Notes: generated by a model not told the origin, from the letters alone. A stretch of 64,000 nucleotides of DNA from Spirochaetota bacterium (GCA_965208615.1 CBDBPB010000002.1:92666-156665); one strand, 5' to 3'; shown: positions 27,753-33,625, counted from the stretch's first letter. Made by a program: numbers and translations.

Positions 27753-28110
27753 ATGAGAGAAGAATTTATACCTATTGTTATATATACGGCTTTAGTTGTT
27801 GGTTTAGGTCTTTTATTTTTACTTATGTCGAGGTATATTGGGCCAATAAAAAAGTCTAAGCAGAAGTATGATCCTTATGAGTGTGGAGTAGAGCCAATAG
27901 ATTCTTTAAGAAAGAGGTTTCATATAAGGTTTTTACTTAATAGCTGCGTTATTTATTTTGTTTGACATTGAAACTGTATTTTTATTGCCATGGGCGGTAA
28001 CTTTTGCTGATATGACTATATTAGCTATAGTTGAGGTTGTTGTATTCATAGGTATTTTGGCTATTGGACTATTATATATTATTAAAAAGAAGGTATTTCA
28101 ATGGGATTAG
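27753..28110 (+). CDS. nuoA: NADH-quinone oxidoreductase subunit A, with apparent +1 shift in a T5 run at 27930-27934
   Basis: N-terminal part ...YECGVEPIDS...RFHIRF in one frame; conserved continuation YLIAALFILFDIETVFLLPWAV... in the next frame, ending at 28110. Confidence 0.75.
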
Positions 28111-28587
28111 AGTCTCATTTACATGGTTTTATTACTACTAAGCTTGACAAGCTGGTTAATTGGGGACGAAAGAACTCATTATGGGCCTATGCCTTTTGGG
28201 GTAGCATGTTGTGCAATAGAGTTTATGGGTTTACTTTGTTCACGGTTTGATTTAGCTCGATTTGGAGCTGAGGTAATACGTTTTTCTCCAAGACAGTCTG
28301 ATTTACTTATTATATCTGGTAGGATATCTATCAAGATGTTGCCTGTTCTAATAAAGATTTATGAGCAGATGCCTGCACCAAAGTGGGTTATTAGTGTTGG
28401 AGCTTGTTGTTCATCTGGGGGAGTGTTTGATACATATACTCTTATACAGGGTGTGGATCAGTTTATACCTGTTGATTGTTATGTACCTGGTTGTCCACCA
28501 AGGCCAGAGGCATTTATAGAGGCTCTTATGTTCATTCAGAAAAAGATAGACAGCGAAAGAATACAGGATAACATACACGGAAAGTAA
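28101..28587 (+). CDS. nuoB: NADH-quinone oxidoreductase subunit B, with apparent +1 shift (tggg) near 28180-28195
   Basis: N-terminus [14 protein letters not shown] in the frame from ATG 28101; conserved continuation [14 protein letters not shown]...GCPPRPE in the ORF 28123-28587 frame. Confidence 0.8.
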
Positions 28588-28589
28588 TT

Positions 28590-29120
28590 ATGGATAATGA
28601 TTCGGTAATTCAGCTATTAAAGTATAATTTAAACGATAAGATTATTAACCACTCTATATTTAGGGGGCTTTTGTCTATAGATATTATGGCTAGTTCTATT
28701 TTAGATATGGTATCTTTACTTAGGGCTAATGAGAAGTTAGATTTTTCTATGTTGATTGACATATCTGGGGTGGACTATTCTGACTTTACTGATGATTTAC
28801 CTGTTAACAGTCGTTTTGGGGTTATTTATATATTTTATTCTTTTGCAAATGATTTAAGGATTAAGGTTAGGGCATTTATACCTGATGATAAGCCTGAGAT
28901 AGATTCTATTTATGGTGAGTTTAAGGGTGCGGATTGGACTGAGAGAGAGATTTATGATATGTATGGTATTAGTTTTAGGGGGCATCCTAACTTGGAGCGT
29001 ATACTAATGCCAGATTATTATAAACATCACCCACTACGTAAGGACTATCCTCTTAGGGGATTGGGAGAGAGAACTAACTTTCCTAAATATAACATATATG
29101 ACAAGTTGAATAGAGAGTAA
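28590..29120 (+). CDS. nuoC: NADH-quinone oxidoreductase subunit C
   Basis: 30-kDa subunit length and motifs (ERxxYDMYGIxFxGHP); operon position. Confidence 0.8.
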   Translation: MDNDSVIQLLKYNLNDKIINHSIFRGLLSIDIMASSILDMVSLLRANEKLDFSMLIDISGVDYSDFTDDLPVNSRFGVIYIFYSFANDLRIKVRAFIPDDKPEIDSIYGEFKGADWTEREIYDMYGISFRGHPNLERILMPDYYKHHPLRKDYPLRGLGERTNFPKYNIYDKLNRE

Positions 29121-29125
29121 TATGA

Positions 29126-30348: not shown

Positions 30349-30822
30349 ATGCTAAAAGAGTTTTCCAAAGAGATGAGAGAAGAGTTAGACAGGCTTATAA
30401 CTGTATTACCTAATAAGAAGGCGGTGTTATTACCTGCACTTCGTATTGCTGAGGAAAAGTTTGGCTTTGTTGATAGTGAGTCTTGTAAGTTAGTGGCTGG
30501 TATTTTAGGCTTATCTCCTTCTTATGTATACGGTACTCTTACCTTTTATACTCATTATAAGAGGGAGTTTCATGGTAAGTATAGGATTATGGTATGCAGT
30601 ACTTTGATGTGTTCTTTAAGGAATAGCAAGGGTATTTTAGAACATATAAAGGCTAGGCTGGGTATTGATGTTGGTGAAAAGACTGAGGATGGTAAGTTTT
30701 CTATAGAGAAGGTTGAGTGCCTAGCTAGTTGTGGTACTGCTCCTTCCATACAAATAAATGATGATTTTTACGAGAATATGACTATAGAGAAGGTAGATGA
30801 GATATTAGATAGTTTGGATTAG
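30349..30822 (+). CDS. nuoE: NADH-quinone oxidoreductase subunit E
   Basis: 24-kDa thioredoxin-like [2Fe-2S] subunit; cysteines spaced C-x4-C...C-x3-C. Confidence 0.8.
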   Translation: MLKEFSKEMREELDRLITVLPNKKAVLLPALRIAEEKFGFVDSESCKLVAGILGLSPSYVYGTLTFYTHYKREFHGKYRIMVCSTLMCSLRNSKGILEHIKARLGIDVGEKTEDGKFSIEKVECLASCGTAPSIQINDDFYENMTIEKVDEILDSLD

Positions 30823-30873
30823 TGGGTCATAGTTTAATTAAGTTATGGTGATATTAGTTTTGAGGTAATAGAG

Positions 30874-32118
30874 TTGGCATTTGAACCTATTTTATTAAAG
30901 AATATTAAGCTAGGCGGGGCTTTAGGCATTGAGTCTTATATGTCAGGTGGGGGATATAAAGCGGCAAAGAAGGCTATAGCAATGGACCCTAAGGCTGTGA
31001 CTAAAGAGGTTAAAGACTCTGGCTTAAGGGGACGTGGTGGTGCTGGTTTCCCTACTGGTATGAAGTGGAGTTTTGTTCCTGATAATATTAAGCCTGTTTA
31101 TCTTGCTTGTAATGCCGATGAGAGTGAGCCTGGAACGTTTAAGGATAGGTATATAATAGAGAAAGACCCTCATCAACTTATTGAGGGTATTATTATTTGT
31201 TGTTGGGCTATACAATCTAACACGGCATTTATATATATACGGGGTGAGTTCCCTTATGGTGCTAGGGTATTAAAGAACGCTATACAAGAGGCTAAAAATA
31301 AGGGTTTTGTTGGTAGTAATATATTTGATAGTGGTTTTGATTTAGATATTATTGTTGTACGGGGTGCTGGAGCTTATATTTGTGGTGAGGAGACTGCATT
31401 ATTGACGTCTATAGAGGGTTCAAGAGGTTATCCTAAATTGAAGCCTCCTTTTCCTGCTGTAGTGGGTTTATTTAAGAAGCCTACAATTATTAATAATGTT
31501 GAGACTCTTGCCAATCTACCTCATATTATTAACAATGGGGCAAAGTGGCATAAGAGTTTTGGTACTGAGAAGAGTCCTGGCTTTAAGATATTTTGTGTTA
31601 GTGGTCTTGTTAATAAGCCTGGGGTATATGAGTTGCCATTGGGTACTCCGTTAAGAGAGATTATATACGATCATGCAGGGGGAGTATTAAACAACAAAAA
31701 GATTAAGGCGGTTATACCAGGGGGATCATCCACACCTATTCTTACTGAGGATCAGTTAGATACAGCTATGGATTATGAGTCTTTACAAGAGGCTGGATCT
31801 ATGTTGGGTTCTGGTGGTATTACTGTTTTAGATGAGAGCAACTGCATGGTGGATGCAATTTTTAATTTAATTAGGTTTTACCATCATGAGTCATGTGGGC
31901 AGTGTACCCCTTGTCGTGAGGGTACTGGTTGGCTTGAGAAGATTATATCCAGGATAAAAAATGGAAGTGGTCTTAAAGAGGATATTGATCTAATACTGGA
32001 AATATGTGATAATATGGAGGGTAAAACTATTTGTCCTTTATCTGATGCTGCGGTTATGCCGACTAGGAGCTATGTTCAAAGGTTTAGGCACGAGTTTGAA
32101 GCGTATATAAAAGAATAG
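30874..32118 (+). CDS. nuoF: NADH-quinone oxidoreductase subunit F
   Basis: 51-kDa subunit; glycine-rich FMN/NADH-binding motifs (GRGGAGFPTG) and C-terminal ESCGQCTPCREG 4Fe-4S motif; TTG start. Confidence 0.85.
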   Translation: MAFEPILLKNIKLGGALGIESYMSGGGYKAAKKAIAMDPKAVTKEVKDSGLRGRGGAGFPTGMKWSFVPDNIKPVYLACNADESEPGTFKDRYIIEKDPHQLIEGIIICCWAIQSNTAFIYIRGEFPYGARVLKNAIQEAKNKGFVGSNIFDSGFDLDIIVVRGAGAYICGEETALLTSIEGSRGYPKLKPPFPAVVGLFKKPTIINNVETLANLPHIINNGAKWHKSFGTEKSPGFKIFCVSGLVNKPGVYELPLGTPLREIIYDHAGGVLNNKKIKAVIPGGSSTPILTEDQLDTAMDYESLQEAGSMLGSGGITVLDESNCMVDAIFNLIRFYHHESCGQCTPCREGTGWLEKIISRIKNGSGLKEDIDLILEICDNMEGKTICPLSDAAVMPTRSYVQRFRHEFEAYIKE

Positions 32119-32136
32119 CGTTAAGGGTTTGTTTAA

Positions 32137-33625
32137 ATGCCAGAGGTAAATAAGTTATTAAGTGTTACAATTGACGGTCAGAAGTATGAGGTTAAGGAAG
32201 GTTTAACTGTACTACAGGCATGTTTAGATTTTGGTATTGATGTGCCTTATTTTTGTTATCATCCTTGTTTATCTACTGCTGGTAATTGTAGGATGTGTTT
32301 AGTTAAAATAGATAAAATACCTAAGCTTGCTATATCATGTGCTACTATGGTTGCTGAGGGGATGAACATATACACTAAAGACCCAGAGGTAATTAAGGCT
32401 CGTAATGCTATTATGGAGTTTTTATTAATAAATCATCCACTTGACTGTCCTGTATGTGATCAGGCTGGTGAATGTACTTTACAGGACTACTCATACCGAC
32501 ATGGGAGAGATTCGGGCAGGTTTACCGAAGAGCGTAATGTTAGGCACAAAAAAGACTTTGGGCCAAATGTCAAATATTGGGGTAGTCGGTGTATTATGTG
32601 TACAAGGTGTATACGTTTTTGTCAGGAGGTTAGTGGTACTGACGAGTTATACGCTTTTAACAGAGGGGATCGTTCTGTAATTGATATATTCCCTGGCATA
32701 GAGCTTAATAATCCATTATCTATGAATGTGGTTGATATTTGTCCTGTTGGAGCTTTAGTTAGTTCTCATTTTTTATATCAGGCACGGGTATGGAATATGG
32801 AGCAAAGGCATAGCCTATGTATAGAGTGTTCTACTGGATGTCATAACTAGGGTTGATTCTTTAGGCAATAGGATTAAGCGTATAGTACCTAGTTCAAATG
32901 ATCGATTTATGTGTGATCATGGTAGGCTAAGTTATGGATATATGTATTCTGAGGATAGGCTTCGTTATCCTTTGGTTAATGGGGATAAGTTAGCTTCGTG
33001 GTCAAAGGTAATGTCCGTATTTAGGGATAAGATAAGACGGTATGCTAGTAAGTCTAGTAGGTTAGCTTTTTTGATTTCTGCATGGAATACTAATGAGGCT
33101 ATGTTTATGGTTAACAGGCTTAAGGATAGTTGCTTAGACAAGAGTGACGTCTATTTGTATTATAAGCCTGATGAAGAGGATAAGGTTTTTCCTAAGTTTA
33201 GGATTAGTGGTGATCGTAATCCTAATATAAATGGTTTTAAGGCGGTTTTTAAAACGGGTGACATTAAAAAGCACTCAGTTAATTTATTAGTAGATAGGGT
33301 TAAGGCTAAAGAGGTTGATGTAGTTATAATAATAGGGGGTATATCCAGTGGATATATGCCTGAGAGTATTACTAATGTTTTATCTGATCTTAAAGATGTT
33401 ATTGTAATAGATTATATTAGTTCATCTTTTAGTAAGGCTGCGAGTTTGGTTTTACCTTCACTTAGTTATGCTGAGAAGGCTGGTAGTTATGTTAATGATC
33501 AGCTTAAGGTTAAAGCTGTTAAGCCTGTTATCAATCCTTTTACCCCTGGTAAGTCAGAAGATGTTATTTTACAAGAGCTTATCATTGCCCTATCAGAAAA
33601 AGGTGAGGTTTTTATCTACTGCTGA
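32137..33625 (+). CDS. nuoG: NADH-quinone oxidoreductase subunit G (short form), with apparent +1 shift near 32845-32852
   Basis: N-terminal 2Fe-2S / 4Fe-4S cysteine clusters in ORF 32137-32850. Continuation ...RVDSLGNRIKRIVPSSNDRFMCDHGR... in the next frame (ORF 32909-33625). Confidence 0.75.

What the first reader, a model, noticed from the sequence alone, without database searches (positions are those of the whole stretch)
27753..33625. Systematic single-base +1 shifts in conserved genes, most in short homopolymers
Seen in sequence: nuoA (T5 at 27930-27934), nuoB (tggg near 28185), nuoG (near 32848), and possibly the nuoD start (T6 at 29135). Outside this span: LysM/M23 peptidase (about 20850), methyltransferase (A6 about 34525), ccoI (T4 about 45595), paralog 3 (three sites), isochorismatase (A4 about 62188). 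Every case is resolved by deleting one base, and in each the well-conserved protein sequence continues in the next frame. Inference: same direction, homopolymer context and essential genes point to base overcalls in the assembly rather than real pseudogenes. A genuinely decaying genome is the alternative.
Basis: partly seen in the sequence, partly recalled or inferred. Interest (0 to 1): 0.6.

Follow-up and report, generated by a model that had tools for sequence, protein, structure and literature searches.

The report
Single extra bases breaking conserved genes
Thirteen conserved genes or gene segments in this window are each split by one extra nucleotide, always in the same direction, and the pattern points to consensus errors in the assembly rather than real gene loss, so it is an artefact to fix and not biology.

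Summary
I found 13 single-base frame breaks in 49.4 kb of assessable coding sequence. All go from frame f to f+1, meaning one base too many. Seven lie outside it: LysM/M23, an N6/N4 methyltransferase, ccoI, three in a surface-protein paralog, and isochorismatase.

Deleting one base at each site restores a full-length protein colinear with homologs. Three related Spirochaetota assemblies have intact nuoA, B, D and G. No -1 shift, no nonsense codon and no other truncation occurs in the other ~35 assessable genes.

The repaired proteins show no relaxed constraint. Ten of the 13 sites lie in runs of 4-6 identical bases (p about 5e-7), and the sites cluster (p about 0.014). One extra T sits inside an otherwise perfect ~170-nt duplicate that lacks it.

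The best reading is residual insertion errors from a low-depth or poorly polished single-molecule assembly of an AT-rich genome (confidence about 0.85). Real recent pseudogenes and +1 recoding are not excluded, because no reads are available, but both are poorly supported. Low interest; not a real feature.

The parts
20829..20866 (+). LysM/M23 peptidase shift, frame 1 to 2. The extra base lies in one of T5 20838-42, G3 20845-47, C4 20849-52, A5 20853-57 or G3 20858-60.
   Evidence: bound the shift between the stops of the two frames. The stitched 362-aa protein has a LysM domain plus a complete Peptidase_M23 domain (profile 2-95 of 96). PDB M23 chains align from residue 27 of the query, upstream of the junction.
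27930..27934 (+). nuoA shift in a T5 run (true length T4), frame 2 to 0.
   Evidence: tblastn hits of three relatives' NuoA split between frames 3 and 1. After repair the sequence reads RFHIRF-YLIAALFILFDIETVF, colinear with the relatives, and Oxidored_q4 is covered 3-99 of 99.
28183..28185 (+). nuoB shift in a G3 run (true length G2), frame 2 to 0.
   Evidence: After repair the sequence reads [22 protein letters not shown], identical to the relatives across the junction. The segment downstream of the junction is 77-81% identical to relatives, against 77% between two intact relatives.
29135..29140 (+). nuoD N-terminal shift in a T6 run, frame 0 (ATG at 29122) to frame 1. Moderate support only.
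   Evidence: After repair the N-terminus MSGYIFDIEEE aligns with HGYQFDIEDD and HGYQFDFEDE in relatives. The GTG at 29126 would give an in-frame start without any shift.
30304..30307 (+). nuoD C-terminal shift in an A4 run (true length A3), frame 1 to 2.
   Evidence: The ORF as called ends ...SSLKYRSWRIR*. Deleting one A gives ...SSLNIVAGELDR*, against NVIAGELDR or NIIAGELDR in the seven relatives whose sequences I read.
32845..32848 (+). First nuoG shift, CAT A[A]C [T]AG, frame 0 to 1. No run longer than 2.
   Evidence: tblastn hits split at 32844/32846. After repair the sequence reads GCHTRVDSLGNRIKRIVP, against GCNTRIDSLDNEIKRII in L004.
33609..33613 (+). Second nuoG shift in a T5 run, frame 1 to 2.
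   Evidence: After repair the sequence reads EKGEVLSTADIFDEMNR, against AEKVLSSSGVFDEMK (L001) and HGEIMSGSGIFDSMRE (L004).
34519..34524 (+). N6/N4 DNA methyltransferase shift in an A6 run, frame 0 to 1.
   Evidence: The stitched 540-aa protein matches 120 listed single-chain homologs of 521-546 aa at 96-100% coverage. The junction KAIKKFNK aligns with ELVKKYNIK.
45595..45600 (+). ccoI-type P1B ATPase shift in T4 (or the adjacent AA), frame 1 to 2.
   Evidence: The stitched C-terminus aligns without a gap across the junction to solved CopA and ATP7B chains...lirdslsvipylirlssytfgiikqnifwaffynviaipla.
60179..60183 (+). Paralog-3 shift a in a G5 run, frame 0 to 1.
   Evidence: After repair the sequence reads KGTWGPPSCN, matching the gene's own internal repeats KGTWDPPSCE.
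60281..60285 (+). Paralog-3 shift b in an A5 run, frame 1 to 2.
   Evidence: After repair the sequence reads GKTWKTAYSDLQKA, against GKSWTTAFSDLQKG in paralog 2.
60845..60846 (+). Paralog-3 shift c, a T doubled to TT, frame 2 to 0.
   Evidence: The duplicate copy about 156 nt downstream matches over roughly 170 nt except for this one T (ACT-AGT versus ACTTAGT).
62188..62191 (+). Isochorismatase-family shift in an A4 run, frame 2 to 0.
   Evidence: The stitched protein has the Isochorismatase domain at 1-174 of 175. It aligns without a gap across the junction to PDB 8rkz and 2b34: GIETHICVYQTVVSLIERGY against GIETHVCVLQTCLDLLDKGY.

Best explanation
The extra bases are insertion errors in the consensus sequence, and the organism's genes are intact.

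The contig comes from an AT-rich (about 33% GC) Spirochaetota-like genome reconstructed from a metagenome. It appears to have been assembled from single-molecule reads at low or uneven depth, or to have been only partly polished. At 13 places the consensus carries one base too many, and each extra base most simply duplicates its neighbour. Most extend a run of 3-5 identical bases by one.

Shown here:
- The breaks exist.
- They all go in one direction.
- They are concentrated in homopolymers and cluster along the window.
- A one-base deletion repairs each of them.
- Relatives carry intact orthologs.
- No other kind of lesion is present.
- The broken genes show no relaxed constraint.

Inferred, not shown:
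- That the extra bases are absent from the DNA molecule.
- That the clusters at 27.9-34.6 kb and 60.2-62.2 kb correspond to stretches of very low read depth or failed polishing.
- The sequencing platform.
For: 1. Homology continues in the +1 frame at every site, and three related assemblies (plus a Logan assembly of a public run that carries the same NuoD as one of them) have intact genes: nuoA 118-129 aa, nuoB 145-161 aa, nuoD 407-408 aa, nuoG 490-527 aa.
2. Removing one base per site gives stop-free, full-length products with complete Pfam domains or gap-free alignments to PDB chains and homologs.
3. All 13 lesions are +1. There are no -1 shifts, nonsense codons or truncations in the other ~35 assessable genes, which include nuoC, E, F, H-N, ilvBN, thiFGE and cbiD. 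The two-sided binomial for 13 of 13 is 2.4e-4.
4. Constraint is not relaxed. Repaired NuoD departs from 3 of 142 columns that are at least 97% conserved. Its five closest intact relatives depart at 1-4, and 30 controls range 0-4. Segments downstream of the shifts are as similar to relatives as intact relatives are to each other.
5. Ten of 13 sites lie in runs of 4 or more bases, against 10% of coding bases (the tail I computed, for at least 9 of 13, is p = 5e-7). The sites also cluster: 7 fall within 7 kb and none in the first 20 kb (p about 0.014). This fits depth-dependent error.
6. Internal controls. The extra T at 60846 is the only difference across about 170 nt from a duplicate copy of the same segment. 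Copies of the 175-bp tandem array are identical over the first ~145 nt except for GG versus GGG at two positions, seen in all four combinations; further on they differ by two substitutions.
7. Literature. Many database 'pseudogenes' are assembly artefacts that depend on platform and coverage (PMC11017572). PacBio-only assemblies of low-GC genomes carry A/T insertion errors in homopolymers (PMC8574707). Nine to ten of the 13 extra bases here are A or T.
Against: - No reads and no independent assembly of this species could be retrieved, so the extra bases were never directly shown to be absent (the nearest NuoD is 77% identical).
- Nanopore assemblies are usually deletion-biased (PMC12007338), so an all-insertion pattern needs a particular platform or pipeline that I cannot identify.
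- At least two of the extra bases are G (nuoB and paralog-3 site a), and two or three sites are not in runs of 3 or more. This does not match the published A/T-homopolymer pattern exactly.
- The restriction enzyme next to the broken methyltransferase has real in-frame deletions. That cassette is genuinely decaying, so its frameshift could be real.
Confidence: 0.85

Rival explanations
1. The frameshifts are genuine and very recent: the lineage is starting reductive decay or has a mutator phenotype, and has lost complex I, ccoI and other functions.
For: Replication slippage also favours homopolymers. Several genes carry multiple hits (nuoD 2, nuoG 2, paralog 3 has 3), as expected once a gene is dead. 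A restriction-modification cassette is inserted between nuoG and nuoH, and its endonuclease is truly degraded. The window therefore does contain some real decay.
Against: - Thirteen of 13 are insertions, with no deletions, nonsense codons or larger lesions. By general knowledge, bacterial pseudogene spectra are mixed and deletion-biased.
- Every downstream frame stays open to the homologous C-terminus in a 33% GC genome.
- Repaired NuoD and the downstream segments are as constrained as in intact relatives.
- nuoC, E, F and H-N are intact.
- All 13 events would have to be evolutionarily instantaneous and fixed in a natural population.
Confidence: 0.08
2. The extra bases are real and the genes are still expressed through recoding: +1 ribosomal frameshifting of the prfB type, or transcriptional slippage at the runs.
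For: Homopolymer sites let the P-site tRNA re-pair in the +1 frame. At four sites the zero-frame stop follows immediately: nuoD-N TTT TGA C (resembling prfB CTT TGA C), nuoG AAC TAG G, paralog-3 site c ACT TAG T, and ccoI AAT TAG G. The downstream reading frames are perfectly preserved.
Against: - The sites are not conserved. All relatives are in frame at nuoA, B, D and G, and the other repeat copies read ACTAGT without the extra T.
- At six or more sites, homology places the shift in a run well upstream of the zero-frame stop, with no shared motif: nuoA, nuoB, the second nuoG site, paralog-3 sites a and b, and isochorismatase.
- Runs of 2-6 bases are shorter than the tracts of 8-9 or more A/T known to give efficient transcriptional slippage (own knowledge: Tamas et al. 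2008).
- No tRNA gene is present in the window to examine.
Confidence: 0.03
3. A mixture: most sites are errors, but the methyltransferase (A6) and the surface-protein paralog (G5, A5, TT) carry real, possibly phase-variable, frameshifts.
For: Restriction-modification genes and surface-protein genes are classic contingency loci (own knowledge). The neighbouring restriction enzyme lacks about 95 aa, including its presumed catalytic core. Paralog 3 lies next to tandem-repeat arrays.
Against: The runs are short (6 bases or fewer) for phase variation. The lesions are of exactly the same kind and direction as those in nuo, ccoI and isochorismatase. Three shifts within 670 nt of one gene is not how a phase switch looks.
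Confidence: 0.15

Closest known systems
Spurious pseudogenes from homopolymer indel errors in single-molecule (PacBio or Nanopore) assemblies
   Same: Single-base indels concentrated in homopolymers split otherwise conserved genes. The rate depends on coverage. For low-GC genomes sequenced on PacBio, the errors are A/T insertions (PMC8574707; PMC11017572; PMC12007338).
   Different: The platform here is unknown. At least two extra bases are G and two or three sites are not in runs of 3 or more. Nanopore assemblies are typically deletion-biased, so the all-insertion pattern fits PacBio-type error better than Nanopore.
Pseudogene accumulation in decaying genomes (for example Mycobacterium leprae or recent symbionts; own knowledge)
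   Same: Many frameshifted genes, some with several hits, including respiratory genes.
   Different: There is only one lesion type and one direction. No nonsense codons, no relaxed constraint, and neighbouring genes of the same complex are intact.
Programmed +1 ribosomal frameshifting (prfB/RF2 type; own knowledge)
   Same: The direction is +1. One site, TTT TGA C, resembles the prfB slippery site with a stop codon in the A site.
   Different: The sites are not conserved in relatives, there is no common motif or stimulator, and most shifts map away from any stop codon.
Transcriptional slippage rescuing poly(A) frameshifts in endosymbionts (own knowledge: Tamas et al. 2008)
   Same: Frameshifts in A/T runs of an AT-rich genome with preserved downstream frames.
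   Different: The runs here are 2-6 nt, not about 9 or more, and they include G runs and non-run sites.

Membership tests
Assembly or consensus insertion artefact | Lesions are single-base and repairable by a one-base edit that restores a colinear full-length protein | tested here: met
   all 13 sites.
Assembly or consensus insertion artefact | Concentration in homopolymers, and uneven (depth-like) distribution along the contig | tested here: met
   10 of 13 sites in runs of 4 or more, against 10% of coding bases (tail computed for at least 9 of 13: p = 5e-7); clustering p about 0.014.
Assembly or consensus insertion artefact | Affected genes otherwise under normal purifying selection; orthologs intact in relatives | tested here: met
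Assembly or consensus insertion artefact | Raw reads or an independent assembly contradict the extra base | not testable with these tools
   No reads are available. The window's own proteins are not retrievable and no same-species sequence exists in the collections searched.
Genuine pseudogenes / genome decay | Mixed lesion spectrum: insertions and deletions, nonsense codons, larger deletions | tested here: not met
   13 of 13 are +1. No other lesions in the other ~35 assessable genes. The only exception is the degraded restriction enzyme.
Genuine pseudogenes / genome decay | Relaxed constraint in broken genes | tested here: not met
   NuoD departs at 3 of 142 conserved columns, the same range as its intact relatives. 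Downstream identities equal those between intact relatives.
Programmed +1 ribosomal frameshifting | Shift site conserved in related genomes | tested here: not met
   Relatives are in frame at nuoA, B, D and G.
Programmed +1 ribosomal frameshifting | Shared slippery codon plus a slow or stop A-site codon | tested here: not met
   Contexts differ between sites. At six or more sites the shift maps upstream of the zero-frame stop.
Transcriptional slippage rescue | Long A/T tract (about 8-9 nt or more) at the shift | tested here: not met
   Runs are 2-6 nt.
Phase-variable contingency locus | Long simple repeat in a surface or restriction-modification gene, with variable length in the population | tested here: inconclusive
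   The methyltransferase (A6) and paralog 3 (G5, A5) are the right kinds of gene, but their runs are short. Population variation cannot be tested without reads.

The most novel reading that the evidence does not exclude
The extra bases are really in the genome, and this Spirochaetota lineage translates through them by efficient, non-programmed +1 ribosomal slippage at short runs (for example because of a tRNA-modification or ribosome defect). Under this reading a bacterium tolerates +1 frameshifts in essential respiratory genes genome-wide.
Probability: 0.02. Interest if true: 0.85.

Novelty: not a real feature. Interest (0 to 1): 0.1.

Why it matters
Taken at face value, the frameshifts would imply loss of complex I, of cbb3-oxidase maturation (ccoI) and of a cell-wall hydrolase in this organism. 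They would also inflate its pseudogene count, lower its completeness scores and distort metabolic reconstruction. Recognising them as consensus errors prevents those wrong inferences. It also flags the whole assembly as needing polishing: at about one error per 3.8 kb of coding sequence, roughly 35-45 are expected on the 168-kb contig. Beyond that it has no biological significance.

Tried and rejected
- Searching for the same species elsewhere failed. A scan of genome contigs with NuoD peptides found nothing. Exact look-ups of the window's NuoE and NuoD found nothing. The best non-self NuoD is only 77% identical. No independent check of the bases was therefore possible.
- I looked for -1 shifts, nonsense codons or truncations by scanning all remaining ORFs against Pfam and with a codon-usage frame segmentation. 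None were found. Apparent frame changes at 10323 (an ATGA overlap) and at 15237-15247 (two lipoproteins with their own signal peptides) are natural gene boundaries.
- I looked for a common recoding motif and found none.
- Neither tRNA genes nor structured RNAs (Rfam at gathering threshold and at E up to 0.1) are present, so there was no non-coding test of indel errors.
- I suspected that relative L003, a 7.77x long-read-style contig, was also riddled with frameshifts, because many small ORFs were called after its nuoG. Six-frame inspection shows long plus-strand ORFs consistent with intact nuoH-M there. The small ORFs are gene-calling noise.
- Assigning the platform: the all-insertion bias does not fit typical Nanopore error. 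It fits the PacBio low-GC pattern only partly, because of the G insertions. I left this open.

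
Full report
**Context.** The window is AT-rich, about 33% GC, with a strong positive GC skew on the gene-rich plus strand. It carries a complete nuoA-N operon at 27753-43191. Its NuoD is identical to a database protein from a 168-kb contig held by NCBI and ENA. The next-best NuoD matches are 69-77% identical and come from metagenome-derived genomes, some labelled Spirochaetota. I retrieved three related nuo loci, plus a second copy of one of them:
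- L001, from GCA_002450905.1.
- L002, a Logan assembly of run SRR5324714 that encodes the same NuoD protein as L001.
- L003, from ENA ERZ25073789.
- L004, from GCA_024449685.1.

**Checking the observation.** The ORF map shows nuoA split into 70 + 50 aa, nuoB into 49 aa plus an overlapping 154 aa, and nuoG into 237 + 238 aa. tblastn with the relatives' proteins shows each of these as two hits in successive frames: 3 to 1, 3 to 1, and 1 to 2. I bounded each shift between the last stop of the downstream frame and the first stop of the upstream frame, then used homolog alignments to fix the position:
- nuoA: T5 at 27930-27934.
- nuoB: G3 at 28183-28185.
- nuoG: 32845-32848.

Two further shifts inside the span had been missed:
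- The nuoG C-terminus shifts again at T5 33609-33613. After repair it reads EKGEVLSTADIFDEMNR, against ...VLSSSGVFDEMK in L001.
- The called NuoD ends ...KYRSWRIR*. The +1 frame reads NIVAGELDR*, the conserved NuoD C-terminus. Removing one A from A4 30304-30307 restores it.

The possible nuoD start shift at T6 29135-29140 is moderately supported. MSGYIFDIEEE aligns with HGYQFDIEDD in relatives, but the GTG at 29126 gives an in-frame start anyway.

**Sites outside the span.** All were confirmed.
- LysM/M23: the stitched protein has a LysM domain and a complete M23 domain.
- Methyltransferase, A6 at 34519-34524: 120 listed single-chain homologs of 521-546 aa cover 96-100% of the stitched 540-aa protein, and KAIKKFNK aligns across the junction.
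- ccoI, T4 at 45595-45598: the alignment to solved CopA chains is gap-free across the junction.
- Isochorismatase, A4 at 62188-62191: the alignment to PDB chains is gap-free.
- Paralog 3: three shifts stepping through frames 0, 1, 2 and back to 0, at G5 60179-83, A5 60281-85 and TT 60845-46. These were mapped against paralogs 1 and 2 and the gene's own internal repeats.

The total is 13 shifts, every one from frame f to f+1.

**Completeness of the inventory.** I scanned every other sizeable ORF against Pfam. I also segmented the window by codon-usage frame. All assessable genes have essentially full domain coverage. They include threonine-synthase-like PALP, Cys/Met PLP enzyme, CbiD, CobM-like, S49 peptidase, TsaE, ThiS-ThiF, ThiG, ThiE, nuoC, E, F, H-N, IlvB, IlvN, YfbK-like, the DUF294 protein, amidase, SSF transporter and rhomboid. 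I found no -1 shift, no nonsense codon and no truncation. The one exception is the restriction enzyme discussed below. The rate is 13 shifts in 49.4 kb of assessable coding sequence, about one per 3.8 kb.

**Statistics.**
- Thirteen of 13 in one direction gives a two-sided binomial p = 2.4e-4.
- Ten of 13 sites lie in runs of 4 or more bases, against 10% of coding bases (the tail I computed, for at least 9 of 13, is p = 5e-7).
- Eleven of 13 lie in runs of 3 or more, against 21% (p = 1.5e-6).
- The sites cluster. Seven fall within 7 kb (27.9-34.5 kb), four within 2 kb (60.2-62.2 kb), and none in the first 20 kb. Permutation p is about 0.014-0.022.

**Error or biology?** Five lines of evidence bear on this.
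1. *Relatives are intact.* nuoA, B, D and G are in frame in all three related assemblies. The methyltransferase homologs are single-chain.
2. *Constraint is not relaxed.* Repaired NuoD departs from the consensus at 3 of 142 columns that are at least 97% conserved among 119 homologs. Its five closest intact relatives depart at 1-4. Downstream of the shifts, NuoB is 77-81% identical to relatives, against 77% between two intact relatives. NuoA is 60-68% against 71%, and NuoG 40-44% against 49%.
3. *The lesion spectrum is a single type.* A decaying genome should show lesions of several kinds and ages. Here all 13 are +1, and every downstream frame stays open to the homologous stop in a genome where off-frame stops are frequent.
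4. *Internal controls.* The extra T at 60846 is the only difference across about 170 nt from a duplicate copy of the same segment. Copies of the 175-bp tandem array at 57299-58118 are identical over the first ~145 nt except for GG versus GGG at two positions, in all four combinations; further on they differ by two substitutions. That looks like run-length noise.
5. *Published precedent.* Many database pseudogenes are assembly artefacts that depend on platform, assembler and coverage (PMC11017572). PacBio-only assemblies of low-GC genomes carry A/T insertion errors in homopolymers, while high-GC genomes carry G/C deletions (PMC8574707). Nine to ten of the 13 extra bases here are A or T.

**Caveats.**
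- Nanopore assemblies are usually deletion-biased (PMC12007338), so the all-insertion pattern is not the usual Nanopore signature.
- At least two extra bases are G, and two or three sites are not in runs of 3 or more. I cannot name the platform.
- No reads or independent same-species sequence could be obtained, so the artefact reading is strongly supported but not proven.

**Recoding considered.** Four sites have a zero-frame stop directly after the presumed shift: nuoD-N TTT TGA C (prfB-like), nuoG AAC TAG G, paralog-3 site c ACT TAG T, and ccoI AAT TAG G. Three things argue against recoding.
- The sites are not conserved in relatives or in paralogous repeat copies.
- At nuoA, nuoB, the second nuoG site, paralog-3 sites a and b, and isochorismatase, homology places the shift in a run well upstream of any stop.
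- There is no shared motif, and runs of 2-6 nt are too short for efficient transcriptional slippage (own knowledge).

I rate recoding at about 3%.

**A partial exception.** The methyltransferase belongs to a restriction-modification cassette inserted between nuoG and nuoH. Those two genes are adjacent in L001, L003 and L004. The neighbouring endonuclease (PF09520) is 160 aa here, against 257 aa in a homologous cassette. It lacks about 95 residues in in-frame gaps, including the presumed catalytic core. That is real decay, so the methyltransferase frameshift could be real as well. The surface-protein paralog is likewise the kind of gene in which real frameshifts occur. Both nevertheless show the same lesion type as the housekeeping genes.

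**Verdict.** Genuine recent pseudogenisation is about 0.08 and recoding about 0.03. This is not a real biological feature. Its value is as a quality flag for the assembly.

Noticed in passing
window 33736-35841: A restriction-modification cassette sits between nuoG and nuoH, which are adjacent in relatives L001, L003 and L004. It comprises a 540-aa N6/N4 DNA methyltransferase (once repaired) and a PF09520 (TdeIII/HinfI-family) endonuclease. The endonuclease is only 160 aa, against 257 aa in a homologous cassette (L005). It is missing about 95 residues in in-frame gaps, including the presumed PD-(D/E)XK core, so it looks like a genuinely degraded enzyme beside an orphaned methylase.
   Followed up: partly
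window 57299-58118: A 175-bp tandem array of 4.7 copies (98% matches) starts inside the 3' end of the DUF294 nucleotidyltransferase gene (55542-57389) and repeats its last ~90 nt. Copies are identical over the first ~145 nt except for GG versus GGG at two positions, in all four combinations, giving unit lengths of 174, 176, 175 and 175; further on they differ by two substitutions. This is either run-length noise or real micro-variation.
   Followed up: partly
window 21238-22709 and 58568-58857: Non-coding tandem arrays lie directly upstream of two of the three paralogous lipoprotein genes. One is 109 bp x 2.3, one is 144 bp x 5.8 (93% matches, no indels), and a related 145 bp x 2 array is at the second location. 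The flanking sequence leading into each gene is also shared. Function is unknown; they may be promoter or regulatory repeats.
   Followed up: no
window 22765-25521, 25760-27133, 59074-61740: Three paralogous predicted lipoproteins share a lipobox-type signal (paralog 3: LTGCGEDD), Cys-rich ~47-aa repeats (KVTKDTDTH..VTCD..KC) and a C-terminal beta-helix / Chlamydia-PMP-like region made of 25-aa GGGMYN repeats. This looks like a variable surface-protein family.
   Followed up: partly
window 1-64000: GC skew is very strong (G exceeds C by up to about 0.35-0.42) and T exceeds A on the plus strand. The skew turns negative only in the 2-kb bins where genes lie on the minus strand (14-16, 18-20 and 52-56 kb), so it follows the coding strand.
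   Followed up: no
window 5340-5900 and 11575-12090: No TPP or cobalamin riboswitch, and no Rfam family of any kind, was detected in the window, even at E up to 0.1, despite thiS/F-thiG-thiE and cbiD/cbiET/cobM clusters. No tRNA genes occur in the 64 kb either.
   Followed up: partly
L003 10572-15409: The stored gene calls for this relative list a dozen small minus-strand ORFs after nuoG. Six-frame inspection instead shows long plus-strand ORFs consistent with intact nuoH-M. The stored calls are wrong there, possibly because of unusual strand composition.
   Followed up: partly
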